DNA of 64,000 nucleotides, taken from positions 103,416,001 through 103,480,000 of the forward strand of contig OZ024741.1 of NCBI GenBank assembly GCA_964016885.1. The letters run 5' to 3'. Source of the stretch: Eledone cirrhosa. Lineage: Eukaryota. Numbering within the stretch: the stretch's first letter is position 1; each line of letters starts with the position of its first letter. The notes under the pieces are model-generated. The model had not been told where the DNA came from and ran no database searches. It saw nothing but the letters and a program-made list of their open reading frames with translations. A program made the position numbers and the translations under genes. Below, piece after piece: positions 1 through 46,072 of the stretch.

Positions 1-291
1 ATATATATATATATGTATAATAATAATAATAATAATAATAATGCTTTCTTTATTAACCACAAGGGTTTACATAAAGTAAACATTAAGGACAGTACAGGAC
101 AATACAGGACGGTACATATGGGCATTTCTGCGTGTAAAGAAAAAACAGAGGATGTAATAAAAAAATAACAATGAAAAATTCCCCAATAGGGGGGAGACTT
201 CCGAGGGACATTTGTGGAGAAAGCCCATTAAAAGGCCACAGTGACCCTGACCACCAAGGCAAGTGCCCTCTCCCAGTTTTCCACCTTTAAT

Positions 292-2380
292 TTACAGACA
301 CATACTCAGAGTAGGCCCATTCACTCGGGCCATACTTGCTTCTCTCACCCATCTTTCAACAAAATGCTGGGAAGAGAGCACTTCCCTCTATGCCCTGATT
401 TTCCTTTTCAAATGAAATTTGAAAAAGTTAATCAGGGCATCACCGAAGAGGTAAGTGCTCGTCTTCAGCCCTTTCAAACGTGTCCACCATACTATCTCTT
501 TCTCCATGGCCACCAGACAGATAAAAACTGCCTGCCCTTCCCGGCTAAAGGAAGAGGGCGGGGAAATCCTCACGATGGACTCAGCTGATAGCTGGATCCG
601 TCCTAAACGTGACAGCAGGTGTTCGACATAAACCCACAAGTCAGCAATGCTCGGACACTGGACGAGTGCGTGCAGGACGGTTTCGTCGCCCTGCGCGCAT
701 CTCGGACATGCCCGGCTGACGGCACCTCCATGCCTGTATACTTTATTTAGAACTGGCAAAGCTCCTCGGTAGCACTGCCAGGCCAGGGATTTCTGGAAGT
801 TGTCCATAGGCCCCGGCCCGAAAGTCCTTCCGAAGAGATTGGCAAGTTGATTTTCGTCGACGCCTAGAGTTTCTCCAAGTACGTCGTCGCTCTTCCCCTC
901 CACTAATCCTCTATAGAACGCCAAGGTGGAGTTTCCACCGATCACATTGCCCGATTGGTCGAGGGCTGTGAGCGCCTGAAGACATTCCAGTTTCCAAGCG
1001 CTCCCTCTCGGTCTTCGCTTGACCCAGGACTGCAGCTCCGTCAAGGAGACGAGCTGGGGAAAGACGTGTCTAGCAAACGGCGACCACACCTGATCACCGT
1101 CGAGGAAGAGGTGGAGATGTCGTAGCCTGATCGCGTGTCTGCGCATCATCAGCCACGGCGTGCCCAGCCCTCTACGTAGCGGGTGTTGACAGCAGATGGA
1201 CCGCCTGACAATCGGAGCGCGTCCCTTCCACAAAAAGCGAAAGAGCAAACGCTGCAGCGCAGTTAGGCGGGGCTTAGGACATGGTACGACGGTCAGGCGG
1301 TAGTAGATGACGGACGCGATGTACGCGATGGCACTTCCGCTCGACCTTTCAGGGAAAGCTTCCTCTCCGCCCATTTCTGGGTGAGAGAAGTCACCCTGCT
1401 CGTCACCTCGTCCCATTTTTTGTCCGTCTGGAGGTCCGGACCGAACCAGACCCCTAGCAATTTAACCGGTCCGTCCGTCCAGCGCCCAACGACGCTGTTG
1501 GACGGCATGGACCTGCCTCTCCAGATGCCGAGCTGCAGGCCCACTGACTTTTCCTCTTTGATCATTGCTCCTGTCACCGCTTCGTATTCTCTTAGTGTAG
1601 TGGCGATCGCCTCGATGTGTTTGGCGTTCGACACCACTACGGTGACATCGTCCGCATATGCTGACACGGATCTTCCGCATCCTAGTTCGCGCGGGACCCC
1701 CCTCAACGTCTCCAGTTTCTGCAGTAATGGCTCGAGAGTCAATACGTACAAGAGGGACGAGAGGGGACATCCTTGGCGGACCGAGCGCATGATTATGAAC
1801 GGTTCCGAAAGGTGACCGTTCACTCTCACCACAGAGCAGATGTCGCTGTGCATGGCAGCGATCCAGCCTCTGAAGACGGGCCCAAAGCCAGCCGCCCTCA
1901 GGACTGCCGCTACGTAACAATGGTCGACCCTATCGAAAGCTTTCGACTGATCTAAATTGATCAAGGACCCACCCATGCCAGGTTCCCTAGCTACCCTCTC
2001 TACGATGTATCGCATGAGGTGGAGGTTGTTGTGGATGAATCTGTCGGGAATGCGCACGTCTGCGCCTCTCCCACCAGAACACCAACGACAAGCGCCAACC
2101 TCTTTGCTAGCACCTTGGCCAAAATCTTGAACTCTGTGTTTAGCAGAGTTATGGGCCTGAAATTATCTATGTTATCCCCCTTGTTCGGATCCTTTCTCAG
2201 CAGCGCCAGAGCTCCTCGGCTCACAGAGCTGGGAATTCTCCCGTTCTGTTGCCAGTTGCAGTAGACGTCCGCCAAGAGGCCTCCGAACAAGTCTGGCATC
2301 TGTACGTAAAGTTCATAGGGCAGACCATCCAAACCAGGCGATTTACCCCTTGTGCAGCCAGTCATTGCCTCCCGTACCAG
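292..2380 (-). pseudogene. Copy A ORF2 remnant (RT plus C-terminal zinc finger, no endonuclease), frameshifted
   Basis: ORFs 2000-2440, 1293-2057 and 388-1416 are consecutive frameshifted pieces homologous to the intact 1145-aa ORF2. The frame ends ...ARVNGPTLSMCL* at about 292. Confidence 0.9.
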
Positions 2381-3187
2381 GGAATTTCGATGGCCGGTGG
2401 AACGTGGGTCACTCTGATCTTCACAAGTCTCTGGCCACAATAGCCTGGGACGAGTGGGAAGTCGTCACTTCTTAATGTGTTCTCTGGCCTCCTGTGATGT
2501 TTCAAAGAACACGTCCACGGTTCCATATTTCTGCCCACGTCTGGTGTGGTTTTTTTTTGCCCACACATGTCCCAAAGCTTTTTGGATTTGGGACTCGGAT
2601 GCCCGTTCCACTCGGCGCGATTTTATGTTAATCGTCCGATAAGACACGGTGCATAGGCGCCGATGCTCCATTTTATTAGGTGTGAGGGGGGGAGGCTGAC
2701 CCTGTACCCATCTTTCTTTACCATTTTTTGGCTTCTTCTAATTCCTCCTGAGTTACCTGGAATGCTTCGCACGTTTTTGCTACTCTGGCAAAAGACAGGG
2801 TTTTCTTATTCTCATTGTTGCTGTCGTTGTTATCGTTATTTTTGTTATTGTTAATTTTAGTTTCAGTTGTAGTGGTGGTGGTGGCGTCAGTGTGTTCGGT
2901 GTGGAAGAGTTCATTTTGGCTGAATTCGTTTCGATATCACGAGATAATTTTTTTTTTTCTTTTGTTTCTGTTGTCGCTGTGGTGGTGGTGGGGGTGGCGG
3001 CTTCAACACCTGCAGTCATTGGTAATGGCGGGAAATGAATGTCTGCCTGAGACAAATTTAAAATATTGCTACTGCTTATATTTTTAGTGTTGGCAAACGT
3101 AGTAATATTTACAATGGTGGTGTCGGTGTGAGGTGTTAGTTTGTGAGGAAGGCTCCCAGCTACTGGGTTCAGCTGTGAGTCGGCCAT
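2381..3187 (-). pseudogene. Copy A ORF1 5' portion
   Basis: TVSYRTINIKSRRVERASESQIQKAL...RGQKYGTVDV...FPLVPGYCGQRLVKIRV aligns with array ORF1 (TVSFRTITNETRKPAQLTESQIELVL...RGKLYASIMV...FFPTYKGRRTQRIRM). Confidence 0.8.
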
Positions 3188-3742
3188 GATTTTTCAAAGA
3201 AATTTTTTTTTGTTTGATAATTATAAAAGTTTAAAATTTTGGGCTCAAGGCCCCAATCTTTTTGAGTGTCCTTTTCAGAAAACAATGTATGTGCACTTAT
3301 ATACAGTTAACAATAAACATTTTCCATAAATGGCAATTTTAAACAACTGAAAATAACAAACCTTTGCGGAGCTCACGATAATACGATTTACTACGTAGGT
3401 CGCCAATAATAATAATAATAATAATAATAATCATTTATTCATTGGCCACAGGGGCTGGCATTAAGAAAAGCATTACAGACGGCACGGGACGGTACAGGAC
3501 GGTACGAAGTGGGTTTTGTGCGTGTAAAGATTTTTATTATTTATATAAGAAACGAAAAAGAAAAAAGACATAGAAACATATATATATATATAAACAATAA
3601 AAATGAAAATTCAAACAATGAAAAATTCCCCAATAGGGGGGAAACCTCCGAGGGTTACTTGTGGCGAAAACCACACAAAAGACCACGGCCAACCTGACCA
3701 CCAGGGCAAGCGCCCTCTCTCAATTTTTTCCCATTCCTCAAA

Positions 3743-6700
3743 CTACAAGCGTATATTCAGAGCGGTGTCGTTCACTCGGACCATTCTCGCTAAATTCACC
3801 CACCTTTCAACAAACTTGCTAGAAGACAGCACTTGCCTCTCCACCCTGATTTTCCTCTTCAAGTGAAACTTGAAAAAGTTAATCAGGGATTCGCCGAAGA
3901 GGAAAGTGTCTGTCTTTAACCCTTTCAACCTTGTCCACCACACAATCTCTTTCGCCATGGCCACCAGGCAGATGAAAACCGCCTGTCCTTCCTCCTCGAA
4001 GGAAGACGGCGAGATCATCTGCACAATGGACTCAGTCGATAACCGGATAGGTCCTACACGCGACAGCAACTGTTCGACATAGTTCCACAAGTCATCAATG
4101 CTCAGGCACTGAACGAGTGGTTGAACGATGGTTTCGTCGCTCTGCGCGCATCTCGGACAGGCTCGGCTGACGGCACTCCGTCCCTGTAGAGCTTATCTCG
4201 AACCGGCAGCGCTCCCCGGTAGCACTGCCAGGCCAGGGATTTCTGGAAGTTATCCATAGGCCCTGGGCTGAAAGTTCTCCGGAAGAGAGCAAACAGCTGA
4301 TTTTCTTCGACGCCCAGGTTCTCTCCGAGAACGTCGTCGCTCTTCCCCTCCACTAGTCCTCTATAGAACGCCGAGGTGGATGTTCCACCGATACTGGTGC
4401 CCAGCTGGCAGAGGGCAGTGAGCGCCTGGAGACATTCCAGTTTCCAAGCGCTATCCCTCGGTCTTTTCCTGACCCAGGACTGCAGTACCGTCAAGGAGAC
4501 GAGCTGTGGGAAAACGTGCCTGGCGAACGGCGACTACAGCTGTTCACCATCAAGGAAGCACCAGAGATGTCGCAGCCTCAGCGCATGTTTGCGCATCATC
4601 AGCCATGGCATTCCCGGTCCTCCACGCAACGGGTGTTGACAGCAGATGGATCATCTGACCATGGGAGCGCGTCCCTTCCACAAAAAGCGGAAGAGGAGGC
4701 GCTCCATTTTGGTGAGAGTTGGGCCGGGGCAAGGGACGACGGTGAGGCGGTAGCAGATGACGGATGCGATGTACGCATTCGCCATCTCCGCCCGGCTTTA
4801 CGGGGACAGCTTCCTCTCGGCCAATTTCAGGGTGAGGAAGGCCACCCTGTTCGTCACTTCGCTCCAGTTTTTCTCCATCTGGAGGTCCGGTCCGAACCAG
4901 ACCCCGAGCAATTTAACCGGTCCGTCCGTCCAACGCCCCACGACGCTGTCGGACGGCATGGACTTGCCTCTCCAGGTGCCGAGCTGCAAGCCCACCCACT
5001 TTTCTTGGTTTATCTTTGCTCCTGTCACCGCTTCGTATTCCTTGAGAGCGGTGCCGAGCATCTGGACGTGTTTGGTTCTCGACACCACCACGGTGACCTC
5101 GTCGGCGTAAGCCGACTCGGATTTTCCGCATCCTAGTTTACGTGCGATGCCCCTCATCGCCCCCAGTTTGTGCAGTAACGGCTAGAGAGCCAATACGTAC
5201 AAGAGGGACGAGAGGGGACAACTTTGGCGGACCGAGCGCATGATGCTGTACGGCTGCGACAATTGACCGTTCACCCTTACAACTGAGCAGATGTCGCTGT
5301 ACATCGCAGCGATCCAACCCCTGGAAATGGGCCCGAAACCGGCTGCCTCGAGGACCACCGCCAGGTACCGATGGTCGACCCTATCGAATGCTTTGGATTG
5401 ATTCAAGTTGATCAGGGCCACACCCGTATCAGGTTCCTTAACCACCCTCTCTGCGATGTATCGCATGAGGTGGAGGTTGTCGTCTATGGATCTGTCCGGA
5501 ATGGCGCATATCTGCGCCTCTCCCACCAGACCCTCGACGACAAGCGCCAACCTCGTTGCTAACACCTTGGCCAAAATCTTGAACTCTGCGTTTAGCAGAG
5601 TTATGGGCCTGAAGTTATCGATAACATCCCCCTTGTTCGGGTCTTTTCTCAGCAGCGCCACCGCTCCCCGGATCACAATACTGGGAATGTTCCCGTATTT
5701 CACCGGCTGTTATTGGCTTTTCGCAACACTGTGCTGCGGTCGTCGAGAGCCGAGGCAGTCTGTCGAGGTATGTACTGAAGTTCATACCCCGACCGGCTCG
5801 CCGCCGCTGCCGAACAGTTCAGCAAAGTGCTGTTGAAAAGCCTCACACATATGCTCGGCTTCGAGCAACACGTACCCGTTTTAGTCAGACAAAGACCGAA
5901 TTGTGGCTTTGTTGCCACGTCGCCCCTCTGCCACTCGGGCCCATTGGACGGCTTTCGTCCCCTCGTGTTTCAGAGCACGCGCTCTAGCTCTGACAACGCA
6001 GCCTTCGTGTTTTGCGTTGAAGAATTGGTCGAGTGCCAATCTCGCCGCAAGCACGTCGGTTGCGATGTCTGTCCTAAACGTCTCTTATAGCTTTCTGACT
6101 AGCTCTCCCTCTACTCTATTTTTCCTCTATCGCTACTCCTTTGCTCAACCTAATCGACTCTACTTTAATTGCCCTTTTCAGGGCAAACCACCATCTGTTG
6201 TTGACGACCGCTCCCGTCAACGCCCGCTTAACAAATACGCTAATCCGGTCTCTGTAGGCTTTGCGCGCCGGGAAAGACGCGTTCAGCTTCCAGTAACCAG
6301 GTCCTTGTCTATGAAGTCTGTCTATGTCGATCTCACAGATCACAAATTTGTGGTCTGTGTAGTCGACTATTTTAAATTGTGGACAACCTATACTAGCCCT
6401 ATCTAGTTCCCTGCAGAATACCCTATCTAGATACGATCTGGATGACCCGATGCAGTTTGTCCATGTCCACATTGGCACATTCGGGTGATCCAGTCGATAC
6501 CTGTCAGACAGTTCAAAACGTCTGAGGAGGTTGGTGAGGCTCTTACACCCTCCTCGCCTATCCACTAGCCCCACACAATCCCAGCGTGCATCCAAGATAC
6601 CGTTCCAGTCGCCCACTAACACTAAAGAGCGGGACGTTCCCAGAAAGGTCTCTAGACGTCTGAAGAAATCTAGCCGTCCTGTCCCTGTTGGGGTATAGAC

Positions 6701-7035
6701 GGCTACTAGCCTGAAAGCGTTGCCTTCGGTGTCGTTCACGTCCAGCACCACCGACTTACCTTCTGGGTCCAGGAAGATGATCCGTATGGCGAGACCCAAG
6801 GATTTCCGAAATAATACAGCCACACCCTCCCCCCCCCCGCTCCCGGACGGCTCAGAGATGCGTACACCTCGTAACCGTCGAAGATCGGTGCGAAAGCTTG
6901 CGTTTCGGAGATTCTCATCTCGCTGATGGCCACCACATCTATGTTTAGTGACCTGAGGTCGTTAAAAAAGTGACCCTGCTTCCAAACCGAGCTCAAGTCA
7001 CGCACGTTTACACTTCCGATCCTGAATACGGCCAT
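3743..7035 (-). pseudogene. Copy B ORF2 (APE endonuclease-RT), multiple frameshifts and a deletion near 5700
   Basis: Starts MAVFRIGSVNVR at 7035 in a CCAACATGG context. Pieces 6116-6823, 5182-5703, 4798-5157, 4102-4494 and 3743-4090 match the intact ORF2 in order. Confidence 0.9.
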
Positions 7036-7071
7036 GTTGGGTGAGGAACGGGGCAAGTGAGAAAGGATCAC

Positions 7072-8732
7072 TTACCTTGATGTCTGGTGTAGGGACCGTT
7101 GAACTGTCCCTTCAGCTGGTCGTCGGCTCTTCTGTGAGTATATCCGAGTATACTATCCGGTTGAGTGTCCCTCCTAGGTCTCTGAAATCACCAACTGCGT
7201 TGGGGAATTTCATTTTAATGTTAGTATATTGTTTCTGTGATATTCTTACCAGTCTTATGTTCGATGGTGTTTTTATTGGTGCTGGTATTATGTAGTCGTG
7301 CTATGAAATGTCTGTGTTCAATTATATAAGTCATTAGTTTCTTGTTGTGTGTATTTATTGCTGTACATTTCTTTTTTTGGGGGTAGGATGTGGTTTTGCT
7401 ATTTTCTTGTCGTTGTTGCTGGGTGTGTGTGTTTTGTAGTTGTGTTTACGATGTTGGTGCTTGTGGTGGTGGTGTTGAAGGTGTTGTTGTTGTTGGCGGT
7501 GGGGTTGACGCCGTTGGTGATGGTAGTGCTAGTGTGGGTGGTGATGATGTTGGTGGTTATTCACCCTTTTTTCATCTCTTCCCTCCCTTTTCGAAGGTAA
7601 CGATGCGCTGCTTCTGCGTTTGTGCCTTCTTGCGACCGTTTGCCATCCCTCTCCTACCTCACACTCCATGTCGATTCTGTGACGTGGGGGAGGGGTACCA
7701 GCTCCAGTCTTTCACTTGTTCTTGTTGGTGATGTTTGGAGTGGAGTCTCTGTTGCAGCTGCAGTTGGTATTACTGTTGTTGTTAATACTTCCACTGCTGC
7801 TGCTGTTCTTGATTTCCGTGGCGTGGGTATGGGTGCCACGGACCTATCCTTCCTGCTTGCCGCCTGTCCTGTTGCTGGCAGCAGTGGAGCCGGTTTCGGA
7901 AGGAGGGGGTTTTCTCCTTTCTCAGGGTCTTCTCATTGCAGAAGGCCCTGAGATGAGTCTTCGACCCACAGCGAAAGCATTTCGGGCGTTTGCCCTCAAC
8001 ACTTATGGGAAGTTGAGTGCCGTTATCGAAGTCTATCACATCCGGGATAGCTTCGATGCACTCCTGGTTGGTTTGAATTAACATCTCAATGGAGGCGCCG
8101 ACCCAATCTTCACGTATTTTTTTCTGTACTTGCAGTACGGTTGTTTTGTCCTCGATACCGACGAGGACAGACGCGGCCAGCCAAGAAGGGGCCATCCCGG
8201 TGGGTGGGTGGGGGCGGGACTTGGGTCAGTTTGACCCTCACAATATTTTGCCCGCTGTAGGAGGGCACCAACACCATTTCCTCGCTCCTTAGGGTCACTA
8301 AGGATTAAGCCTTTGCCTCCTGGGGTGTGACAAAAAGCACGTCCACGGTGGCATATTTCTTGCCTCGGGTGATATGCGTTTTCCGCTGCCACACAAAGGC
8401 TTTTTGTATTTGAGCCTCTGTGGCTCTTTCAACCCTACGTGATTTTGTGCTTACTGTACGGTACGTGACCGTACAGTGCTGTTGGGTTTCGAAAAATTCT
8501 TCGGCTGCCTTGCAGATTGCTCGGTGTCCTGTTTTCGTCACCATCTTCCTTGCTTCCTGTAATTCCTCATTTGTTATAAGGATGGTTTCCAGGTTCTTTG
8601 CGATACCTGCAAACGAGATTGGTTTTTCTTTCTTGTTGTTGTTGTCGTCAGAGCTGCTGTTACTTTTGTTGTTGCTGCTGGTATTACGACAGCCGCCGCC
8701 GCTGTTGCTGTTGTTGTTGTTGTTGTTGTTGT

Positions 8733-8782
<50 letters not shown>

Positions 8783-9158
8783 TTGTTTATGCTGCTGCTG
8801 ATGTTGTATTTTCCTCGCCCCTGTTGCTGCTGCTGCTGTTATTATGGCTGCTGTTGCTATTCTTCATGACGTCAGACGAATGAAATGGCTTTCCGTATTT
8901 ACCGCACACATCTTTCGTTGTTGTCGTCGTCATGGAGAAATGTTCCACGGTACGCGCGTTCTCTTGATGAAGAACGCTACGAGAAACTACATTTTTCTTT
9001 TTCTTTAATGGCGTCGCTTATGAAAGAGGCAACAGAGGCGACACCACATTTAGAGAAGGGAGGGAGAGATACAATCTTTTCGCTGACGTAATGACGATTG
9101 GAGAAGAAGAAGACGGAAGGAGTGGGAGTGACTTGTGAAAATTCTTTTTTGTAGCCAT
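7072..9158 (-). pseudogene. Copy B ORF1 (gag-like, CX2CX4HX4C knuckle, poly-Gln tract), disrupted
   Basis: ATG at 9158. Pieces CTVTYRTVSTKSRRVERATEAQIQ and ISVEGKRPKCFRCGSKTHLRAFC. (CAG/CAA)n at about 8700-8860. Stop TAA at 7074-7072. Confidence 0.8.
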
Positions 9159-9393
9159 TTTTTACGGTTTAAAATGAATATTGGGCACAAATCCCCAATA
9201 ACTGGTTATTTAACCCCGAAGGGCCAAATAACGGGCAGAAAGACCCCTCTCACGAGGAGAGGGTGTCTTTATCTACAATTTGGTTAAAGTTTTAAACAAT
9301 TTACAATTGTTATAACGGTTAAAATTTACAATACCTTACAGAGCCGAGCCTCCGTCAACTATAGCATTCAATAATAATAATAATAATGATAAT

Positions 9394-9583
9394 AATTGTT
9401 TCTACTTTTGGCACAAGGCCAGTAATTATCCCAGTGTATTGCTGGTACTTTATTTTATTGACCCCGTAAGGATGAAAGCAAAGTTAACCTCGGCGGGATT
9501 TGAACTCAGATCATAAAGGGCCGTAACTCTTTGCTGCAAAGCATGGCGTCCGACCCTCTACCGATACTGCCAATCCACCGCCC
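9394..9583 (-). mobile_element. tRNA-derived SINE, family 1
   Basis: A-box TGGCAGTATCGG and B-box GAGTTCAAATCC on the minus strand. Near-identical copies at 18643, 56867 and 63741. Sits in (AAT)n. Confidence 0.85.

Positions 9584-9650
<67 letters not shown>
9584..9650. repeat. (AAT)n microsatellite
   Basis: Direct reading. Confidence 0.97.
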
Positions 9651-9651
<1 letters not shown>

Positions 9652-27829: not shown

Positions 27830-28911
27830 AGCCAGTTTTCTGTCCATTTCTATCCAGTCTGTCTTTCTACCTATGTCTGATATTTGTCTGTGTGTCTGTC
27901 TCCTTATCGGCCTGTCTTTCTATCTGCCTCTCAACCTGTGTGTCTGACTATCTCTCAGTCTGTCTCTGTCTGATCTTTGTGTATGTGTGTCTCTCTGCCT
28001 GTTAGTCGGTCTGTAACTGTCAGATTGCCTGTGTCTGATGTGTGTGTGTATGTCTCTCAGTCTGTCTGTCAGTCTGTCAGTCTGTCAGTCAGTCTTTCTG
28101 TCAGACTGTCTGTCAGTTAGATGTCTGTCTATTTGTCGCTTTTTTTGTCAGCCTGTGTATGCCTGTGTTTGTGTCTGTCAGTCTGGTAGTTTCTCTCTCT
28201 CTATCAGTCTGTATGTATGTCTATGTATCAATATATGTGTGTGTGCATGTGTGTGTATGTGTGTGTGTGTGTGCGTGTGCAAGTGTGTGTTTGTGTGTTT
28301 GTGTGTGTCAGTATGAATGAATATGTGTGTGTCCTTGAATCTGCTGTCGGTCAATCTGTTAGTCCCCATGTGATTCTGGCTGTTATTGTCTGTCAGTCGA
28401 CCAATATATAAGTAGCATGTTTGTCACTGTGTTTTCCTGTCTGTATGTGTCTGATGTCTGTGTGTGTGTGTGTGTGTCAGTCGCTCTGTCACTATGTCAA
28501 TCTGTGTGACAGTCTGTATACATGTGTGTCTGTGTGTGTGTGTACCTGTCTGTCAGACTGTCAGTCTGTCAGTCTATCAGTCTGTCAGTCTGCCAGTCTA
28601 TCAGTCTGTCAGTCTGTCAGTCTGTCAGTCTGTCAGTCTATCAGTTTATCAGTCTGTCAGTCTATCAGTCTGTCAGTCTATCAGTCTATCAGTTTATCAG
28701 TCTGTCAGTCTGTCAGTCTATCAGTCTATCAGTCTATCAGTCTGTCAGTCTATCAGTCTGTCAGTCTATCAGTCTATCAGTTTATCAGTCTGTCAGGCTG
28801 TCAGTCTGTCAGTCTGTCAGTCTGTCAGTCTATCAGTCTGTCAGTCTGTCAGTCTGTCAGTCTGTCAGTCTATCAGTCTATCAGTCTGTCAGTCTGTCAG
28901 TCTATCAGTCT
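27830..28911. repeat. (TCAGTCTG/TCAGTCTA)n satellite, degenerate and TG-mixed distally, homogeneous from about 28549
   Basis: Direct reading. Runs straight into the first array element. Confidence 0.92.
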
Positions 28912-29086
28912 GAGGATAGTAGACGTGTGTCATATCGCTCTGTGATTTGGATTTTTACCTGCTAATTTTGTGAGTGGATTTTTTTGAATTATTTTGTATA
29001 ATTAACTGTAACCCCTAGTCTGGGACTCTAGACGTCGGGTAAATATATTTTCACCCCTTTTGGGGTGAAAAATAAATATTTGAGAA

Positions 29087-30838
29087 ATGTTTATCGATAT
29101 CGTTGATAACGATATCGTCGAAAACGATATCGCCATATTGGAAGCGAACGCCACGCCGACCAAAAAAACAAGCGGGAAAGAGGGAACAACAGTTCAAACT
29201 GTTGAACAACCCCTCCTCTCCAATGAAAAAAAGAATTTCAATTCAAATGAAAAAATTAATTTTCAAGAAAAAAATAACACCACAAATAAGGAAACCAACA
29301 ACATTACAACAACAAACAAAGACAAAATTTCTTTTGCCCAAACACTCAAGAGAGCCACGGAGTACAAAGCCATTGACATCACGAACGCCAAGGAAAATTT
29401 GCTAGAGGCTAGAAAATACGTATCTTTTGGGGAGGATGGTTCTTTTACGATCAACTCCCCAGAAGAAGTGCGTGAACAGATTTACAAGAATACCGTAAGC
29501 TTCAGAACCATAACCAACGAAACGAGAAAGCCAGCGCAATTGACCGAAAGTCAAATCGAGCTGGTTCTGAAAGAAATTAAAAATGACATACTCTTTATTC
29601 AAAGAGGAAAGCTGTATGCCAGCATTATGGTCCGAATGAAGGACGAAATGCTGGCTCAGAAATATTCGGTGGCACCTATTGTGTCACCACAATACACCTT
29701 CTTCCCCACATATAAAGGAAGAAGAACACAAAGGATAAGAATGTGGAGCCCTACGCCAGAAATTAACATCTGGTCCGTCCTAACAGGATTTACCGACCTA
29801 GATAAGGACATACTAATTTCAGCAGGGGAGTCCACCAGTGGACTGTTCGGGGGGAAAAGTCTGGAGGTTCTCTTACAGATGACACCTGAGAGAATCTCCG
29901 GAATACCCGACCGAGTGCTACTGGATGGGCGAACCTACATAAATATCACAGTGGAAGGCAGGAGACCCTCATGTTACCACTGCGCTGGCAGAGGTCACCT
30001 GAGGACGGCCTGCCCTCTACTAACAACTAAAAAACCACTGCTACAAACACCACAACAACAACAAAAACAACCAGCACCACCATCACAAAAACAACAAAAT
30101 ACACTACCATCTCCACCAGAACAACAAAAACCAACAACACCACCACCACCACAACAACAACAACATCAACAACAGCTCAAGAAAACAACCCAAAACACGG
30201 TCCCACCCAGCCCCACCCCACAGAACACAAATACAAAAACAGTTCATACACAACCCGGAGATATACCCCTCCCCTCCAATACGGAAGAGGAGCTCATATC
30301 GTCGGAAGACGAGGGGGCTCCCTTCCAAAAAGTGAAAAGAAAAAAACGTACACACACCACAACAACAAAAATAACCCCACCTGACAACACAACACAGACA
30401 ATAAAACGCAAACTCACTCAACAACAACAAGCAAAAACAAACACAACAACACAAAAACTCTACACATACATAAACAAAAACAATGAAAACCTAACTTTAA
30501 AAATAGAAACCAACCCTTCGATACAAACCGAAGGGCCGAATTTCGTAACGGCAATGGGGCTCCCTAACCTGAAAATGGTGAAAATCCCACTTGACATTTT
30601 TAAAACTTTAAAAGACATGTACCCTGAGGACGTGGGCCCACCCTGCACCAGGCCACTCAACCGCGTCCTCCTGAAAGGTTTTCCCCTCCCCTCCTCAAAC
30701 ACCCACACAACTCCAAAGATCCCAACCCCTCCACACACTAATACCCCCACACCACCACAAACCACCACCCCACCCATCAACCCCTCCACCAGCCCCATGG
30801 AAACTGAGCGACCCGAACCCCGGGATGCAGAGAGGTAA
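29087..30838 (+). CDS. ORF1p, gag-like nucleic-acid-binding protein (583 aa)
   Basis: CYHCAGRGHLRTAC (CX2CX4HX4C) knuckle, Q/P/T-rich tail, basic KVKRKKR patch. Lies upstream of ORF2. Confidence 0.93.
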   Translation: MFIDIVDNDIVENDIAILEANATPTKKTSGKEGTTVQTVEQPLLSNEKKNFNSNEKINFQEKNNTTNKETNNITTTNKDKISFAQTLKRATEYKAIDITNAKENLLEARKYVSFGEDGSFTINSPEEVREQIYKNTVSFRTITNETRKPAQLTESQIELVLKEIKNDILFIQRGKLYASIMVRMKDEMLAQKYSVAPIVSPQYTFFPTYKGRRTQRIRMWSPTPEINIWSVLTGFTDLDKDILISAGESTSGLFGGKSLEVLLQMTPERISGIPDRVLLDGRTYINITVEGRRPSCYHCAGRGHLRTACPLLTTKKPLLQTPQQQQKQPAPPSQKQQNTLPSPPEQQKPTTPPPPQQQQHQQQLKKTTQNTVPPSPTPQNTNTKTVHTQPGDIPLPSNTEEELISSEDEGAPFQKVKRKKRTHTTTTKITPPDNTTQTIKRKLTQQQQAKTNTTTQKLYTYINKNNENLTLKIETNPSIQTEGPNFVTAMGLPNLKMVKIPLDIFKTLKDMYPEDVGPPCTRPLNRVLLKGFPLPSSNTHTTPKIPTPPHTNTPTPPQTTTPPINPSTSPMETERPEPRDAER

Positions 30839-30861
30839 GTGCCTCTTTCTTTGCCACCAAC

Positions 30862-33800
30862 ATGGCTGTCTTAAGAGTAGGTTGTCTAAATGCGCGTGGC
30901 CTGGGCTCACCTTGGAAGCAAGCTAAACTTCTAAGTGACCTCAGGTCACAATGTGTAAATGTGATGGTTATTTGCGAGGCCCGGATCAGCAGCATGCGAC
31001 AGCTAGCCCCCACCTTTGATGACTTTGAGATGCACGCATCTCTCTGTCAGCCTGGAGGTGGGGGTGGGGTTGTCGTTCTGCTGCAAAAACATCTGGGTCT
31101 CGCTACACAGACGGTACACTTGGACCCGGAGGGTCGACTCGTGGTTCTGGACCTTGGCAATGGCGAAGGCGAAGCTTTTAGGCTTGTCGCCGTATACGCC
31201 CCTTTTGGGGCAATGCGGTCGGACTTCTTCCATCGTCTGGAGACTTTTCTAGGGACGTCCCGCTCCTTGCTTTTAGTGGGGGACTGGAATGGTATCCTAG
31301 ATGCACGTTGGGACTATGTAGGGGCATGTCCCGATAGAGGGGGGTGTAACAGCCTTAAGGGGTTAATCGGCCGATTCGACCTGGCCGATAGATACCGACT
31401 AGATTTTCCGACTGTACCAACCTGGACCTGGTCAAATAACAGTGGTCAATCTAGATCGTACCTAGATAGGTTCTTAGTTAGAATTAAGGATAGGGACTTT
31501 TTAAGTTGTCCAGAAATGCTCATGGTGGGCTATTCAGACCACAAGTTAGTGACCTGCGTAGTCCACCTTGATAGAACGCATAGGCAGGGGCCCGGTTACT
31601 GGAAGCTCAACTTGTCCTTACCGGCAAGTAGAGCTTACAGGGACCGGATTAGAACCTTAGTTAAGGAGCAGTTGACGGGCGCCATCGTCAACAACAGGTG
31701 GTGGGGCTCTCTAAAAAGAGAGATTAGAGTAGTTTCAATAGGAGTTAGTAAGGAGTTAGCCTCAGATAGAAATAGGAAGGAAAGGGAGTTGGTAGTTAAT
31801 GTTGAAGAGGCAATGAGAAGCGGCAACGTGGCCAGAGTGCAAGCGTCGAGAACGGTCTTGAACCAGTTCTTCGACGCGAAACACGAAGGCTGCGTTGTCC
31901 GAAGCAAAATACGTGCTCTGGGAAACGAGGGGACCAAAGCTGTTAGCTGGGCCCGCGTGACAGAAGCGAAAAGTGGGATTAAATCCACTATCCGGTCTTT
32001 GCGAGACCAGGATGGACGGCTGATCCTTGAACCTAAGCAAATGTGCGAGGCCTTTCAAAGGCACTTTGCCCAATTGTTCGGGAGGGGCGGGGAGCCGGTT
32101 GGAGATGTGGATTTCGGTCCATACCTCGACGGCCTGCCGCGTCTTTCGGACAGGGAGGCGAGGTCCTGCGACGGGCCGATCTCAGCTGCTGAAATAGGGG
32201 ACGTGCTGAGCCTATGCGGCAAACGCAAATCTCCAGGACTCGATGGTCTGCCCTACGAACTATATATTAATATGCCGGACTTGTTCCCCGATCTCCTCGA
32301 GGCGGTCTACTGCAACTGGCAACAGAACGGGAGAATTCCCTGTTCTGTGACCAAGGGCGTAGTCTCGCTAGTGAGGAAGGACGAGAACAAGGGGGATGAC
32401 ATTAGTAATTTTAGGCCCATAACTCTGCTAAATGCAGAGTTAAAGATTTTGGCGAAGGTGTTAGCGAAGAGGTTGGCGCTTGTCGTGGGGGGCCTGGTGG
32501 GAGATGCGCAGACATGCGCTATCCCGTCCAGGTCCATCCACGACAACCTCCACCTCATGCGATACATCATAGAGAGGGTTGGGAACGAACCCGGCTTTGG
32601 TGGGGCCCTGATAAATTTAGATCAGTCTAAAGCGTTCGATAGGGTGGACCATGGTTACCTGGATGCGGTGCTAGCGGCGGCTGGGTTCGGACCCGTTTTC
32701 AGGGGCTGGATCACTGCCATGCACAGCAGCCGCATCTGCTCTAGAATCAAGGTGAACGGCTACCTTTCGGAGCCGTTCGAAATCACCCGCTCCATCCGAC
32801 AGGGGTGCCCTCTCTCCTCCCTTCTGTATGTATTGACTCTCGAGCCATTACTGCGGAAGTTGGAGTTGTTGCAGGGCATCCCTTTGGAACCGGGATTGCG
32901 CAAAGCGGTGTCGGCCTACGCCGATGACGTAACAGTAATGGTGTCGACCGCCTCGGAAATCGAGGCAATCGGCACCTTACTAGAGGAGTACGAAAGGTTG
33001 ACAGGGGCTAAGCTGAACCGGGACAAGTCAGTCGCTTTGCAACTCGGCGAGTGGAGGGGCAAAGCGATGTCGTGCGACGGTATCGTCGGACGGTGGACGG
33101 AGGGCCCGGTGAAGTTGCTTGGGGTCTGGTTCGGACCGGACCTCCAGGTGGAGAAAAACTGGGGTGAGGTGACGAATAGGGTGTTTGCACTGACCCAGAA
33201 GTGGGCTGAGTGCAAACTATCCCTAAAAGGTCGGGCGGAGGTGGCGAACGCTTACATAGCGTCCGTCATCTATTACCGCTTGACTGTCGTACCTTGCCCG
33301 GGTGAGATCCTCGCCAAAATGGAGCGCGCCCTCTTTTATTTCCTTTGGAAGAAGAGGTCTCCTCTAGTGAGGAGATCCATCTGCTGTCAACACCCTTTGA
33401 AAGGAGGGCTGGGGATGCCGTGGCTAAAAATGCGTAAACACGCATTGAGGCTAAGGCACCTCCACGTATTCCTCACCGGTCAACCGGTGTGGGCCCCGTT
33501 TGTGAGGCGAGCCTTCCCGAGGCTCGTCTCGCTCACCGAGCTGCAGTCCTGGGTGAAGCAAAGACCGAGAAAACTGGGCGACTGGCACACCGAGTGTGCC
33601 CAGGCGCTCACGGCTCTCTGGCAGGCGGACCCGGCTATCGACGGAGACTCCACCTCGTCATTCTATAGAGGGCTGGTGGTTAGCGGGTGCGACGACGCCC
33701 TCGGAGAAGCCCTAGGCATGGAGGAGGACGAACTGGCCAGTCTATTCGGTAGGACTTTCGGCCCGGGACCTATGGACAACTTCCAGAAGTCCTTGGCCTG

Positions 33801-34299
33801 GCAGTGCTACCGAGGGGCTCTGCCCGTTCGGGATAAGCTCTACAGACACGGGCGCCCGGGTAGGGACCCCTCGAAAAAGATCTGTCCCAGATGCGTGCGC
33901 GACGAGGAAACCGTCGCGCACGCATTGGTGCACTGCCCGGGCGTTGCCGATCTGTGGGGCTATGTTGAACAACTGCTGTCACGGGTGGGACCAATTAGGT
34001 TGACCACCGAGTCCATTGTAACGATCAAGCCGCCTCCCCCCTTCAAAAATGAAGGAGAGGCGGTCTTCCTCTGTGTAATAGCCATGGTAAAAGAGGCTAT
34101 ATGGTGGACGCGTCTGAAAGGGCTGAGGTCGGACACCTTTCTCTCCGGCCAACAACTGGTCCTTTTTTTCCGATACCATTTCGGAAGAAGGATCAGGATG
34201 GAGAGAGAGGTGCTCCACTCCAGCCAGTTTTATGAAAGGTGGGTGAAAGTTGCGAGAATGGCCCGTGTGAATGGGCCTTCTCTCTACCTCAGCCTGTAG
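30862..34299 (+). CDS. ORF2p, APE endonuclease-reverse transcriptase-zinc finger (1145 aa)
   Basis: NARG, CE, VYAP, GDWN, YLDR and SDH endonuclease motifs. GPGYWKLN linker. KSPGLDG, FRPITLLN, DQSKAFDRV, QGCPLS and YADD RT motifs. CPRC..ETVAHALVHC finger. Kozak-like GCCACCAACATGG. Confidence 0.97.
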   Translation: MAVLRVGCLNARGLGSPWKQAKLLSDLRSQCVNVMVICEARISSMRQLAPTFDDFEMHASLCQPGGGGGVVVLLQKHLGLATQTVHLDPEGRLVVLDLGNGEGEAFRLVAVYAPFGAMRSDFFHRLETFLGTSRSLLLVGDWNGILDARWDYVGACPDRGGCNSLKGLIGRFDLADRYRLDFPTVPTWTWSNNSGQSRSYLDRFLVRIKDRDFLSCPEMLMVGYSDHKLVTCVVHLDRTHRQGPGYWKLNLSLPASRAYRDRIRTLVKEQLTGAIVNNRWWGSLKREIRVVSIGVSKELASDRNRKERELVVNVEEAMRSGNVARVQASRTVLNQFFDAKHEGCVVRSKIRALGNEGTKAVSWARVTEAKSGIKSTIRSLRDQDGRLILEPKQMCEAFQRHFAQLFGRGGEPVGDVDFGPYLDGLPRLSDREARSCDGPISAAEIGDVLSLCGKRKSPGLDGLPYELYINMPDLFPDLLEAVYCNWQQNGRIPCSVTKGVVSLVRKDENKGDDISNFRPITLLNAELKILAKVLAKRLALVVGGLVGDAQTCAIPSRSIHDNLHLMRYIIERVGNEPGFGGALINLDQSKAFDRVDHGYLDAVLAAAGFGPVFRGWITAMHSSRICSRIKVNGYLSEPFEITRSIRQGCPLSSLLYVLTLEPLLRKLELLQGIPLEPGLRKAVSAYADDVTVMVSTASEIEAIGTLLEEYERLTGAKLNRDKSVALQLGEWRGKAMSCDGIVGRWTEGPVKLLGVWFGPDLQVEKNWGEVTNRVFALTQKWAECKLSLKGRAEVANAYIASVIYYRLTVVPCPGEILAKMERALFYFLWKKRSPLVRRSICCQHPLKGGLGMPWLKMRKHALRLRHLHVFLTGQPVWAPFVRRAFPRLVSLTELQSWVKQRPRKLGDWHTECAQALTALWQADPAIDGDSTSSFYRGLVVSGCDDALGEALGMEEDELASLFGRTFGPGPMDNFQKSLAWQCYRGALPVRDKLYRHGRPGRDPSKKICPRCVRDEETVAHALVHCPGVADLWGYVEQLLSRVGPIRLTTESIVTIKPPPPFKNEGEAVFLCVIAMVKEAIWWTRLKGLRSDTFLSGQQLVLFFRYHFGRRIRMEREVLHSSQFYERWVKVARMARVNGPSLYLSL

Positions 34300-34732
34300 G
34301 TGGAACAGAAAGAAGGGAGCACTCTCTCTTTGTGCTCCCGTGGAGAAGGGTCGCACACTTTTTTTTCGGGGGTGTGTGTGACCCCAAAACGATCCCTCCC
34401 TATTGAGGACCTTCTTGTTATTATTCTGTTTGTTATATTTTTCTTACTCGATTTTTATGTAAACTCCCCCCACCCATGTAAATGTCCCTTTCTTTTGTGC
34501 CCTAGTGGCAAATAAACAGAAATTAGTCTGTCAGTCTGTCAGTCTATCAGTCTGTCTGAGGATAGTAGACGTGTGTCATATCGCTCTGTGATTTGGATTT
34601 TTACCTGCTAATTTTGTGAGTGGATTTTTTTGAATTATTTTGTATAATTAACTGTAACCCCTAGTCTGGGACTCTAGACGTCGGGTAAATATATTTTCAC
34701 CCCTTTTGGGGTGAAAAATAAATATTTGAGAA

Positions 34733-36484
34733 ATGTTTATCGATATCGTTGATAACGATATCGTCGAAAACGATATCGCCATATTGGAAGCGAACGCCAC
34801 GCCGACCAAAAAAACAAGCGGGAAAGAGGGAACAACAGTTCAAACTGTTGAACAACCCCTCCTCTCCAATGAAAAAAAGAATTTCAATTCAAATGAAAAA
34901 ATTAATTTTCAAGAAAAAAATAACACCACAAATAAGGAAACCAACAACATTACAACAACAAACAAAGACAAAATTTCTTTTGCCCAAACACTCAAGAGAG
35001 CCACGGAGTACAAAGCCATTGACATCACGAACGCCAAGGAAAATTTGCTAGAGGCTAGAAAATACGTATCTTTTGGGGTGGATGGTTCTTTTACGATCAA
35101 CTCCCCAGAAGAAGTGCGTGAACAGATTTACAAGAATACCGTAAGCTTCAGAACCATAACCAACGAAACGAGAAAGCCAGCGCAATTGACCGAAAGTCAA
35201 ATCGAGCTGGTTCTGAAAGAAATTAAAAATGACATACTCTTTATTCAAAGAGGAAAGCTGTATGCCAGCATTATGGTCCGAATGAAGGACGAAATGCTGG
35301 CTCAGAAATATTCGGTGGCACCTATAGTGTCACCACAATACACCTTCTTCCCCACATATAAAGGAAGAAGAACACAAAGGATAAGAATGTGGAGCCCTAC
35401 GCCAGAAATTAACATCTGGTCCGTCCTAACAGGATTTACCGACCTAGATAAGGACATACTAATTTCAGCAGGGGAGTCCACCAGTGGACTGTTCGGGGGG
35501 AAAAGTCTGGAGGTTCTCTTACAGATGACACCTGAGAGAATCTCCGGAATACCCGACCGAGTGCTACTGGATGGGCGAACCTACATAAATATCACAGTGG
35601 AAGGCAGGAGACCCTCATGTTACCACTGCGCTGGCAGAGGTCACCTGAGGACGGCCTGCCCTCTACTAACAACTAAAAAACCACTGCTACAAACACCACA
35701 ACAACAACAAAAACAACCAGCACCACCATCACAAAAACAACAAAATACACTACCATCTCCACCAGAACAACAAAAACCAACAACACCACCACCACCACAA
35801 CAACAACAACATCAACAACAGCTCAAGAAAACAACCCAAAACACGGTCCCACCCAGCCCCACCCCACAGAACACAAATACAAAAACAGTTCATACACAAC
35901 CCGGAGATATACCCCTCCCCTCCAATACGGAAGAGGAGCTCATATCGTCGGAAGACGAGGGGGCTCCCTTCCAAAAAGTGAAAAGAAAAAAACGTACACA
36001 CACCACAACAACAAAAATAACCCCACCTGACAACACAACACAGACAATAAAACGCAAACTCACTCAACAACAACAAGCAAAAACAAACACAACAACACAA
36101 AAACTCTACACATACATAAACAAAAACAATGAAAACCTAACTTTAAAAATAGAAACCAACCCTTCGATACAAACCGAAGGGCCGAATTTCGTAACGGCAA
36201 TGGGGCTCCCTAACCTGAAAATGGTGAAAATCCCACTTGACATTTTTAAAACTTTAAAAGACATGTACCCTGAGGACGTGGGCCCACCCTGCACCAGGCC
36301 ACTCAACCGCGTCCTCCTGAAAGGTTTTCCCCTCCCCTCCTCAAACACCCACACAACTCCAAAGATCCCAACCCCTCCACACACTAATACCCCCACACCA
36401 CCACAAACCACCACCCCACCCATCAACCCCTCCACCAGCCCCATGGAAACTGAGCGACCCGAACCCCGGGATGCAGAGAGGTAA
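34733..36484 (+). CDS. ORF1p (unit 2)
   Basis: As unit 1, with one E>V change. Confidence 0.93.
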   Translation: MFIDIVDNDIVENDIAILEANATPTKKTSGKEGTTVQTVEQPLLSNEKKNFNSNEKINFQEKNNTTNKETNNITTTNKDKISFAQTLKRATEYKAIDITNAKENLLEARKYVSFGVDGSFTINSPEEVREQIYKNTVSFRTITNETRKPAQLTESQIELVLKEIKNDILFIQRGKLYASIMVRMKDEMLAQKYSVAPIVSPQYTFFPTYKGRRTQRIRMWSPTPEINIWSVLTGFTDLDKDILISAGESTSGLFGGKSLEVLLQMTPERISGIPDRVLLDGRTYINITVEGRRPSCYHCAGRGHLRTACPLLTTKKPLLQTPQQQQKQPAPPSQKQQNTLPSPPEQQKPTTPPPPQQQQHQQQLKKTTQNTVPPSPTPQNTNTKTVHTQPGDIPLPSNTEEELISSEDEGAPFQKVKRKKRTHTTTTKITPPDNTTQTIKRKLTQQQQAKTNTTTQKLYTYINKNNENLTLKIETNPSIQTEGPNFVTAMGLPNLKMVKIPLDIFKTLKDMYPEDVGPPCTRPLNRVLLKGFPLPSSNTHTTPKIPTPPHTNTPTPPQTTTPPINPSTSPMETERPEPRDAER

Positions 36485-36507
36485 GTGCCTCTTTCTTTGC
36501 CACCAAC

Positions 36508-39945: not shown

Positions 39946-40402
39946 GTGGAACAGAAAGAAGGGAGCACTCTCTCTTTGTGCTCCCGTGGAGAAGGGTCGC
40001 ACACTTTTTTTTCGGGGGTGTGTGTGACCCCAAAACGATCCCTCCCTATTGAGGACCTTCTTGTTATTATTCTGTTTGTTATATTTTTCTTACTCGATTT
40101 TTATGTAAACTCCCCCCACCCATGTAAATGTCCCTTTCTTTTGTGCCCTAGTGGCAAATAAACAGAAATTAGTCTGTCAGTCTATCAGTCTATCAGTCTG
40201 TCAGTCTGTCAGTCTATCAGTCTGTCTGAGGATAGTAGACGTGTGTCATATCGCTCTGTGATTTGGATTTTTACCTGCTAATTTTGTGAGTGGATTTTTT
40301 TGAATTATTTTGTATAATTAACTGTAACCCCTAGTCTGGGACTCTAGACGTCGGGTAAATATATTTTCACCCCTTTTGGGGTGAAAAATAAATATTTGAG
40401 AA

Positions 40403-42154: not shown

Positions 42155-42177
42155 GTGCCTCTTTCTTTGCCACCAAC

Positions 42178-45615: not shown

Positions 45616-46072
45616 GTGGAACAGAAAGAAGGGAGCACTCTCTCTTTGTGCTCCCGTGGAGAAGGGTCGCACACTTTTTTTTCGGGGGTGTGTGTGACCC
45701 CAAAACGATCCCTCCCTATTGAGGACCTTCTTGTTATTATTCTGTTTGTTATATTTTTCTTACTCGATTTTTATGTAAACTCCCCCCACCCATGTAAATG
45801 TCCCTTTCTTTTGTGCCCTAGTGGCAAATAAACAGAAATTAGTCTGTCAGTCTATCAGTCTATCAGTCTGTCAGTCTGTCAGTCTATCAGTCTGTCTGAG
45901 GATAGTAGACGTGTGTCATATCGCTCTGTGATTTGGATTTTTACCTGCTAATTTTGTGAGTGGATTTTTTTGAATTATTTTGTATAATTAACTGTAACCC
46001 CTAGTCTGGGACTCTAGACGTCGGGTAAATATATTTTCACCCCTTTTGGGGTGAAAAATAAATATTTGAGAA

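What the first reader, a model, noticed from the sequence alone, without database searches (positions are those of the whole stretch)
17..9393. Second tandem pair of related Tx1 elements uses a different microsatellite, (AAT)n
Seen: the order is (AAT)n, copy A, (AAT)9, copy B, (AAT)n, head-to-tail on the minus strand. A and B have different 5' UTRs and ORF1 N-termini, so they look like independent insertions rather than a duplication. Their ORF2 is closely similar to the array ORF2 (shared RTFGPGPMDNFQKSLAWQCYRGALPV). Inference: closely related lineages have switched target between (ATT)n and (TCAGTCTR)n, giving a natural comparison for mapping the endonuclease residues or 3'-end pairing that set specificity.
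Basis: partly seen in the sequence, partly recalled or inferred. Interest (0 to 1): 0.72.

Follow-up and report, generated by a model that had tools for sequence, protein, structure and literature searches.

The report
Retrotransposons homing to ATT repeats
Two decayed copies of related LINE-type jumping genes lie head to tail inside one ATT repeat, and their many relatives in the same genome are nearly always found in ATT repeats too, so the family likely aims at that repeat, a new target for a habit already known from fish and crocodile elements.

Summary
On the minus strand the order is (ATT)22, a 190-bp SINE, (ATT)8, copy B (9369-3432), (ATT)9, copy A (3404-43), (ATT)8.7. A and B are separate insertions of two subfamilies: they are 79% identical over the 3' 2.3 kb and their 5' parts do not align. 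Both are broken. B has frameshifts. A has a private deletion of about 2.4 kb that removed its endonuclease.

Genome sampling supports homing to (ATT)n:
- 60 of 60 full-length 5' ends abut (ATT)n in one orientation.
- About 19 of 26 informative 5'-truncated copies do so.
- 5 of 5 intact relatives have (ATT)n on both sides.

The preference is strong but not absolute. A SINE with a similar 3' end makes target duplications that start with ATTAT.

The array lineage targets TGTC-type repeats in general (30 of 30), not the 8-mer as such. The endonuclease hairpin loop differs between the two target classes. However, the Cys in B's loop is private to that copy, and the loop is no richer in class-specific changes than the rest of the domain.

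Microsatellite-targeting Tx1 elements are known (TC, TTC, TTCC/TTTC repeats). This is a new target variant. The scan has already reported it on other DNA of this genome.

The parts
17..42 (-). (ATT)8.7 run directly 3' of copy A. It is followed by a short (TA)n and then non-repeat sequence outside the window.
   Evidence: TRF; sequence; 3' flank read in L112.
43..3404 (-). Copy A, 3362 bp. It belongs to the A subfamily, whose 5' end starts GGCGACCTACG. Parts: 3' UTR 43 to about 294; ORF2 remnant (residues 447-1145, two frame changes) 295-2371; early ORF1 remnant and 5' UTR 2377-3404. The endonuclease is absent.
   Evidence: tblastn; Pfam RVT_1 and zf-RVT; 93% aa identity to other A-type copies in RT and C-terminus.
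2371..2377 (-). Internal deletion junction of copy A. About 2.4 kb is lost, covering late ORF1 and ORF2 residues 1-446.
   Evidence: Most of the 29 other A-type copies align to A only up to sense position 1028. The deletion is therefore largely private to this copy.
3405..3431 (-). (ATT)9 spacer between the 3' end of B and the 5' end of A.
   Evidence: TRF; sequence.
3432..9369 (-). Copy B, 5938 bp, full length but broken. Parts: 3' UTR 3432-3745; ORF2 3746-7035 in at least four frame segments; ORF1 about 7854-8619 in two frames; 5' UTR up to 9369, starting GAATGC.
   Evidence: tblastn; Pfam Exo_endo_phos and RVT_1; falls in the B clade of the tree.
6434..6472 (-). Endonuclease hairpin-loop motif of copy B. 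It carries a copy-specific Cys where the family has Arg.
   Evidence: Coordinates; comparison of 20 copies; the motif aligns to the loop region of L1 endonuclease chain 2v0s.
9370..9393 (-). Imperfect (ATT)8 directly 5' of copy B.
   Evidence: Sequence.
9394..9583 (-). SINE of about 190 bp inserted into the microsatellite upstream of B.
   Evidence: 92-96% identical copies at 18640-18829, 56865-57058 and 63740-63929; flanks; genome copies.
9584..9651 (-). (ATT)22, the outer part of the upstream microsatellite. Non-repeat sequence follows.
   Evidence: TRF; sequence.
28548..51658 (+). Comparison array. It has about 45 units of the local 8-mer (AGTCTRTC), then four intact units (ORF1 583 aa, ORF2 1145 aa; 4-9 differences among the three equal-length 5612-bp units compared) separated by 4-7 repeat units, then about 18 units.
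31420..31458 (+). Endonuclease hairpin-loop motif of the first array unit.

Best explanation
Copies A and B are two separate, now broken insertions of related L1/Tx1-like LINE subfamilies lying head to tail in one (ATT)n microsatellite, and the family likely homes to such repeats because its endonuclease is predicted to nick the AAT strand and the RNA's (AUU)n tail would then pair with the nicked end.

Shown here:
- the anatomy of the stack;
- that A and B belong to different subfamilies;
- that relatives across the genome sit in (ATT)n in one orientation, with a fixed junction phase;
- that each insertion leaves (ATT)n on both sides, so later copies and a SINE stack next to earlier ones;
- that a sister clade in the same genome sits in TGTC-type repeats instead.

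Inferred:
- Target-primed reverse transcription starts at a nick after ...AATAAT on the bottom strand. This is read from SINE target duplications that begin with ATTAT.
- The endonuclease, the tail pairing, or both set the choice of repeat.
- Long (ATT)n runs are favoured because they offer the motif in tandem.

The tandem pair is therefore an ordinary outcome of this homing habit, not a duplication.
For: Genome-wide flanks:
1. 30 of 30 loci with the B-type 5' UTR and 30 of 30 with the A-type 5' UTR have ATT units directly upstream on the element's sense strand. Each set includes the window's own copy. These are the best-scoring of 1678 and 2448 first-look candidates. For A, the upstream runs are 3-27 units, median 10.
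2. In 18 of 29 non-window A-type loci the run is preceded by neither a Tx1-like 3' end nor the SINE. These runs are therefore not just tails of the two element kinds recognised here.
3. About 12 of 16 informative A-type and 7 of 10 informative B-type 5'-truncated copies still have ATT at the 5' junction. The upstream repeat is therefore target, not element leader.
4. Five of five fetched copies with open ORF1 and a 1139-aa ORF2 have (ATT)8-23 upstream and (ATT)13-22 downstream.
5. 18 of 58 non-window full-length copies have another Tx1-like 3' end directly upstream across an (ATT)n spacer. This is the same arrangement as A and B.

A and B as separate insertions:
6. They differ. Nucleotide identity is 79% over the 3' part only, they fall in separate starred clades, and A's deletion is private.

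Sister lineage and nick site:
7. The sister lineage shows 30 of 30 array-type 5' ends in TGTC-type repeats. The repeat after its 3' end matches the local variant.
8. Of 29 other SINE copies, 20 have target duplications of at least 8 bp, and 13 of those start with ATTAT right after the SINE body. The SINE's last 24 nt resemble the LINE 3' end.

Protein family and background:
9. ORF2 has an AP-type endonuclease, an RT and zf-RVT. The best solved match is human L1 ORF2p, E = 8e-51.
10. The literature holds that the endonuclease mainly sets the target of such elements (PMC4494074, passages).
Against: - The preference is not absolute. Four of 16 A-type and 3 of 10 B-type informative truncated copies lack ATT at the 5' junction. 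Examples are L114 with an 8-bp duplication at an ATAATTAT site and L130 next to (TA)n.
- These classes were judged by eye from printed flanks.
- The samples are the top-scoring hits, not a census.
- No empty site was seen, so pre-existing microsatellites are inferred from length and context only.
- The SINE, if moved by this family, mostly lands outside long (ATT)n. Either the true requirement is a short motif or the SINE has another partner.
- Nothing here separates endonuclease specificity from RNA-tail pairing.
- Loop grafting in L1 endonuclease did not transfer specificity in a modular way (PMC1950540, passages).
Confidence: 0.85

Rival explanations
1. The repeat choice is set mainly by pairing of the read-through RNA tail with the nicked DNA. 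The endonucleases of the two classes would then be only weakly specific.
For: - The repeat after the array element's 3' end is locus-specific: TGTC at some loci, the 8-mer here.
- Target duplications of the SINE begin with the same ATTAT that ends the SINE.
- The hairpin loop is not enriched for class-fixed changes, with 2 of 9 positions against 28% domain-wide.
Against: - The two classes differ at 46 of 166 comparable endonuclease columns.
- The ATT-class loop NR[I/M]G is shared by a third, deep (ATT)n lineage.
- The literature assigns target choice mainly to the endonuclease.
- A tail can only pair after a nick has been made at a fitting site.
Confidence: 0.3
2. The (ATT)n runs are only tails made or carried by the elements. 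The real target would be any short ATTAT-like site, and the link with microsatellites would be a by-product of landing in older tails.
For: - SINE copies and a few truncated LINE copies sit at short ATTAT-like sites with target duplications.
- 40 of 58 non-window full-length copies lie behind another element's or a SINE's 3' end.
Against: - 18 of 29 A-type and 6 of 29 B-type upstream runs follow sequence that is neither element.
- Upstream runs reach 25-27 units, well beyond the 8-19 bp duplications seen.
- 60 of 60 full-length copies sit in ATT runs, against only a few of 29 SINE copies in long runs.
Confidence: 0.12
3. A and B are a local tandem duplication or unequal crossover product of one insertion, or they merely accumulated passively in a repeat-rich region.
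For: They lie head to tail with a short spacer. The neighbouring array units are near-identical, so unequal exchange is possible there.
Against: - A and B share only 79% identity over the 3' 2.3 kb, and their 5' UTR and ORF1 modules do not align.
- They fall in different clades.
- The junction phase and orientation are the same at 60 of 60 other loci. Passive accumulation does not predict this.
Confidence: 0.02

Closest known systems
Kibi and Koshi (Tx1 clade, teleost fish), and the crocodilian Tx1 group at (TTCC)n/(TTTC)n
   Same: They are APE-type LINEs of the Tx1 group inserted specifically in microsatellites, and related lineages have different repeat targets (PMC4494074 passages; PMC3812793 passages). 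Here too the same repeat flanks both ends in a fixed orientation.
   Different: The targets here are (ATT)n and TGTC-type repeats, not TC-rich repeats. The host is a 3.0-Gb genome that earlier scan notes call octopus-like, which I did not test. Kinship to Kibi or Koshi could not be tested because no named reference sequences were at hand.
Dong (R4 clade), specific for (TAA)n
   Same: The same trinucleotide microsatellite is used (PMC3812793 passages).
   Different: Here there are two ORFs with an N-terminal AP-type endonuclease and an L1-like RT, which is not the R4 design as I recall it. By its name Dong reads TAA on its sense strand, whereas these elements read ATT. The opposite polarity stated in earlier scan notes was not tested here.
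Human L1 with Alu (nick at a poly(T)-A junction, poly(A) tail pairing)
   Same: The ORF2 architecture is the same, and human L1 ORF2p is the closest solved structure. A tail that can pair with the nicked strand, a SINE sharing the 3' end, and target duplications that begin with the tail motif parallel the L1 scheme. The L1 scheme itself is partly recalled, and partly taken from PMC1950540 passages.
   Different: The tail and nick motif are ATT-based instead of A-based, and full-length copies are confined to microsatellites.
Tx1L endonuclease and the L1-EN loop grafts (LTx, LR1)
   Different: In that work, loop exchange altered nicking profiles but did not transfer specificity in a modular way. 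Here no biochemical data exist.

Membership tests
L1/Tx1 group of non-LTR retrotransposons | ORF2 with an N-terminal AP-type endonuclease followed by an RT | tested here: met
   In the array ORF2, PF03372 scores 28.7 bits (cut-off 24.5) and PF00078 scores 94.1 bits. Copy B has both domains and copy A has the RT only. Human L1 ORF2p matches at E = 8e-51 over residues 7-858.
L1/Tx1 group of non-LTR retrotransposons | C-terminal zinc-binding region (zf-RVT) | tested here: inconclusive
   PF13966 scores 30.1 bits in copy A, above the 27.5 cut-off. It scores 26.3 bits in the array ORF2, just below the cut-off.
L1/Tx1 group of non-LTR retrotransposons | ORF1 with RRM and/or CCHC zinc knuckle. These combinations are described as consistent with Tx1 (PMC5203782 passages). 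| tested here: inconclusive
   A CX2CX4HX4C knuckle is visible in the array ORF1 (residue 296) and in copy B (7979-7938). Pfam reports no family for ORF1 at E <= 0.01.
L1/Tx1 group of non-LTR retrotransposons | RT phylogeny placing it in Tx1 rather than L1 proper (RTclass1 or Repbase references) | not testable with these tools
The protein search and the atlas returned no named Tx1 references. A paper on Octopus vulgaris lists 'L1-Tx1' families.
Microsatellite-specific Tx1 elements (Kibi/Koshi type) | The same microsatellite on both flanks, well above the 20%-of-flanks criterion used in PMC4494074 | tested here: met
   60 of 60 5' flanks. 21 of 29 A-type 3' flanks have at least 3 units. 5 of 5 intact copies have the repeat on both sides. 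About 19 of 26 truncated copies have it at the 5' junction.
Microsatellite-specific Tx1 elements (Kibi/Koshi type) | Target (TC)n or (TTC)n | tested here: not met
   The targets here are (ATT)n and TGTC-type repeats. The elements work like Kibi and Koshi but are not those families.
Dong (R4 clade) | R4-type design, without an N-terminal AP endonuclease (recalled) | tested here: not met
   There is an N-terminal AP-type endonuclease and a separate ORF1.

The most novel reading that the evidence does not exclude
One young LINE radiation holds intact sister lineages that home to different simple repeats, (ATT)n and TGTC-type. A few endonuclease changes, including the tip of the hairpin loop (R-I-G-S versus N/H-S-G-Q), would have re-aimed the element. 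A partner SINE exposes the minimal nick motif. This would be a natural, ready-made system for learning how to re-target an L1-type endonuclease.
Probability: 0.3. Interest if true: 0.65.

Novelty: new variant of a known kind. Interest (0 to 1): 0.45.

Why it matters
Target-specific LINEs show how a retrotransposon can spread to thousands of copies while avoiding genes. Here intact members of both target classes coexist in one genome at 68% ORF2 identity. That offers a tractable contrast for the open question of what sets the target of an L1-type element: the endonuclease, the RNA tail, or both. It also explains how stacks and arrays of LINEs and SINEs form at microsatellites in this genome. 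For annotation, it warns that ATT runs and TGTC runs here are often insertion scars or landing pads rather than plain slippage products.

Tried and rejected
- SINE identity: ARAGORN and Rfam (gathering thresholds) gave no tRNA or RNA-family call on the SINE or anywhere in 1-10000. Calling the SINE tRNA-derived is therefore unsupported here.
- Named references: the large protein search returned 80 relatives but no names apart from one plant entry. The protein atlas gave only generic RT and endonuclease clusters. Tx1-versus-L1 placement could not be tested.
- Tree building: the careful tree search did not finish in 288 s, so quick IQ-TREE trees with SH-aLRT support are reported.
- First sample of long copies: 16 A- and B-type copies, picked by 5' UTR similarity, had no open full-length ORF2. 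This suggested a dead family. A later RT-protein search found 20 of 135 scored matches with open frames above 1000 aa, which overturned that idea.
- Flank classing: automatic classing failed for 4 of 29 B-type loci and mis-set a few others. The B-type classes therefore come from reading.
- Failed scripts: two scripts stopped on coding errors and were rerun.
- Earlier notes near this window: none found.
- Duplication of one insertion: rejected.
- The 8-mer as the array element's specific target: rejected.
- The hairpin loop as an outstanding hotspot of class differences: rejected.
Full report
**1. What is in the window**

TRF lists ATT/AAT runs at 17-42, 3405-3431 and 9584-9651. Read on the minus strand, which is the sense strand of the elements, the order is as follows:
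- non-repeat flank;
- (ATT)22 at 9651-9584;
- a 190-bp SINE at 9583-9394;
- an imperfect (ATT)8 at 9393-9370;
- copy B at 9369-3432;
- (ATT)9 at 3431-3405;
- copy A at 3404-43;
- (ATT)8.7 at 42-17;
- a short (TA)n and then non-repeat sequence just outside the window (3' flank of L112).

The SINE recurs at 18640-18829, 56865-57058 and 63740-63929 at 92-96% identity. It simply split the microsatellite upstream of B.

**2. The two copies**

The window also holds four intact units of a related element on the plus strand, each with an ORF1 of 583 aa and an ORF2 of 1145 aa. I used their proteins as rulers.
- Copy B carries ORF1 residues 81-330 and all of ORF2, but in at least four frame segments.
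- Copy A carries only ORF2 residues 447-1145, with two frame changes, plus an early ORF1 piece and a 5' UTR.
- Most of the 29 other A-type copies align to A only up to its sense position 1028. The loss of about 2.4 kb, including the endonuclease, is therefore largely private to this copy.
- Pfam finds RVT_1 and zf-RVT in A, and Exo_endo_phos and RVT_1 in B.
- A and B align at 79% over the 3' 2.3 kb only. A 63-residue ORF1 stretch is 60% identical.

**3. Is (ATT)n a target or only a tail?**

The window lies in a genome of 2,995,841,428 bases.

*Full-length 5' ends.* I searched the genome with the first 293 bases of B and the first 212 bases of A. The first look gave 1678 and 2448 candidates, and 30 loci each were returned, the window's own copy included. 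All 30 and all 30 have ATT units directly upstream on the sense strand. The junction is constant: ATT then GAATGC for B, and ATT then GGCGACC for A.

*Length and context of the upstream runs.*
- For A the upstream run is 3-27 units, median 10.
- Among the 29 non-window A loci, 7 runs are preceded by another Tx1-like 3' end, 4 by the SINE and 18 by neither.
- For B, reading, the numbers are 11, 12 and 6.
- Head-to-tail pairs like A and B are thus common: 18 of 58.
- Many runs are not the tail of either element kind.

*5'-truncated copies.* I sampled 3' UTRs next.
- For A, 20 of 29 non-window copies start inside the locus. Four of these are internal rearrangements. Of the 16 informative ones, 12 have at least two ATT units at the 5' junction and 4 do not (L114, L116, L126, L130).
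- For B, about 7 of 10 informative copies have ATT at the junction. The exceptions are L174, L177 and L194.
- These classes were read by eye from printed flanks.
- L114 and L140 show target duplications at short ATT-like sites.

*3' flanks.* On the 3' side, 21 of 29 A-type copies have three or more units, 5 have two units or an imperfect run, and 3 have none.

The preference is therefore strong and strand-specific, but not absolute.

**4. Living relatives**

Sixteen long copies picked through their 5' UTRs had no open full-length ORF2. A search with A's open RT segment scored 135 of 105,367 candidates, and 20 of those lie in open frames above 1000 aa.

I fetched five of them. All five have an ORF2 of 1139 aa and an ORF1 of 499-698 aa. 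All five have (ATT)8-23 upstream and (ATT)13-22 downstream.

Their ORF2 identity to the other elements is:
- 94% to A-type copies;
- 75-80% to B-type copies;
- 68% to the array ORF2.

Four of the five combine a B-like 5' UTR and ORF1 (83% to B) with an A-like ORF2 and 3' end (95%). The fifth has the A-type 5' module. The 5' modules have therefore been exchanged between lineages that share the same landing sites.

**5. The contrast lineage**

The array element's 5' end gave 306 candidates. The 30 loci returned include four from this window. All 30 have TGTC-type repeats upstream, ending in GTC or CTC before TGAGGATAG.
- Most are (TGTC)n or compound TGTC-containing repeats.
- The pure 8-mer is seen only at this window's locus.
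- The repeat that follows the element's 3' end also varies by locus.
- A further intact-looking relative (L107, 84% ORF2 identity) ends in TATC/TGTC repeats.

**6. Relationships**

Four proteins at about 40% identity served as outgroup. The ingroup splits into two groups, each with SH-aLRT of at least 96:
- the array element plus L107;
- one database protein plus the B clade (5 rows) and the A clade (7 rows).

Without the endonuclease the same groups appear. A third (ATT)n lineage (L110) and the window fragment 17167-18264 are unresolved at the base. One switch of target fits the tree, but its direction is open.

Identity by domain:

| Comparison | Identity range across the four domains |
|---|---|
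| A versus B | 73-84% |
| Array versus A or B | 56-76%, lowest in the endonuclease |

**7. The loop**

The array endonuclease matches chain 2v0s, an L1 endonuclease with a grafted loop.

Loop sequences by class:
- ATT-class copies mostly read W-T-N-R-I-G-S-S-R. Window B has Cys in place of Arg.
- The intact copies read the same.
- L110 reads N-R-M-G at the tip.
- The TGTC class reads W-S-N-N-S-G-Q-S-R or W-R-N-H-S-G-Q-S-R.

However, 46 of 166 comparable endonuclease columns are fixed differences between the classes. Only two of these lie in the nine loop positions. There is effectively one evolutionary contrast. The L1 loop grafts also did not move specificity in a modular way. The loop is a fair candidate, no more.

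**8. The SINE as a probe**

Of 29 other SINE copies, 20 have target duplications of 8-19 bp. Thirteen of those begin with ATTAT directly after the SINE body. Few SINE copies lie in long ATT runs. The SINE's last 24 bases resemble the LINE 3' end.

If this family moves the SINE, which is an inference, then the nick falls after AATAAT on the bottom strand and a short motif suffices. Why full-length LINE copies are so much more confined to long runs stays unexplained.

**9. Known or new**

- Tx1-group elements specific for (TC)n, (TTC)n and (TTCC)n/(TTTC)n are described, and the endonuclease is held to set the target (PMC4494074, passages).
- (TAA)n is the target of Dong (PMC3812793, passages).
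- A 2026 repeat annotation of Octopus vulgaris lists 13 recently active L1-Tx1 families. The passages holding my search terms gave no target (PMC13282606).
- My literature searches found no report of an (ATT)n- or TGTC-specific Tx1 element.
- Earlier notes of this scan report the same lineages on other DNA of this genome.

**Verdict.** It is an ordinary product of a repeat-homing LINE family, and it represents a new target variant of a known kind.

Noticed in passing
window 9394-9583; also 18640-18829, 56865-57058, 63740-63929: A SINE of about 190 bp. Its last 24 nt resemble the LINE 3' end. Its target duplications (8-19 bp) mostly begin with ATTAT (13 of 20 detected among 29 genome copies). 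ARAGORN and Rfam give no tRNA call.
   Followed up: partly
L214, L216, L217, L218 versus L215 (genome loci): Intact (ATT)n elements are mosaics. A B-like 5' UTR plus ORF1 module (83% to copy B) is joined to an A-like ORF2 and 3' end (95%). L215 has the A-type 5' module. This points to exchange of 5' modules between lineages that share landing sites.
   Followed up: partly
upstream flanks in L020, L037, L038; downstream flanks in L133, L174, L191, L198, L201, L215: Two recurrent sequences that match neither the Tx1-like 3' ends nor the SINE abut (ATT)n. One ends in ...GTCTTCTTCCCTT before the run. The other starts with (C/T)TTGAGTCTCAGTC after it. They may be the two ends of another (ATT)n-associated element in the opposite orientation. 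Earlier notes mention Dong.
   Followed up: no
window 17167-18264 (minus strand): An internal ORF2 fragment (residues 374-739) of a further lineage. It is 82% identical to the array element in the RT, lacks both ends, and has an unresolved place in the tree.
   Followed up: partly
window 28913-51509: The three equal-length array units compared differ by only 4-9 positions in 5612 bp (the fourth unit is 5611 bp and was not compared). Spacers 2 and 3 give identical TRF rows. Unequal exchange as well as repeated insertion could have built the array.
   Followed up: partly
window 26950-27585: A 48-bp unit repeated 13.2 times at 98% identity.
   Followed up: no
window 11773-11990 versus 12993-13130; 9887-9993 versus 10000-10104: Two inverted-repeat pairs. 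The first has mirror-image tandem-repeat consensus sequences about 1 kb apart. The second is a 107-bp hairpin-like pair at 93% identity. They may be terminal repeats of DNA transposons or MITEs.
   Followed up: no
window 60-110 and 3470-3520 (minus strand): The 3' UTRs of A and B each hold three tandem copies of a 10-nt unit of the type GTAYYGTCCT, just upstream of the conserved 3' end.
   Followed up: no
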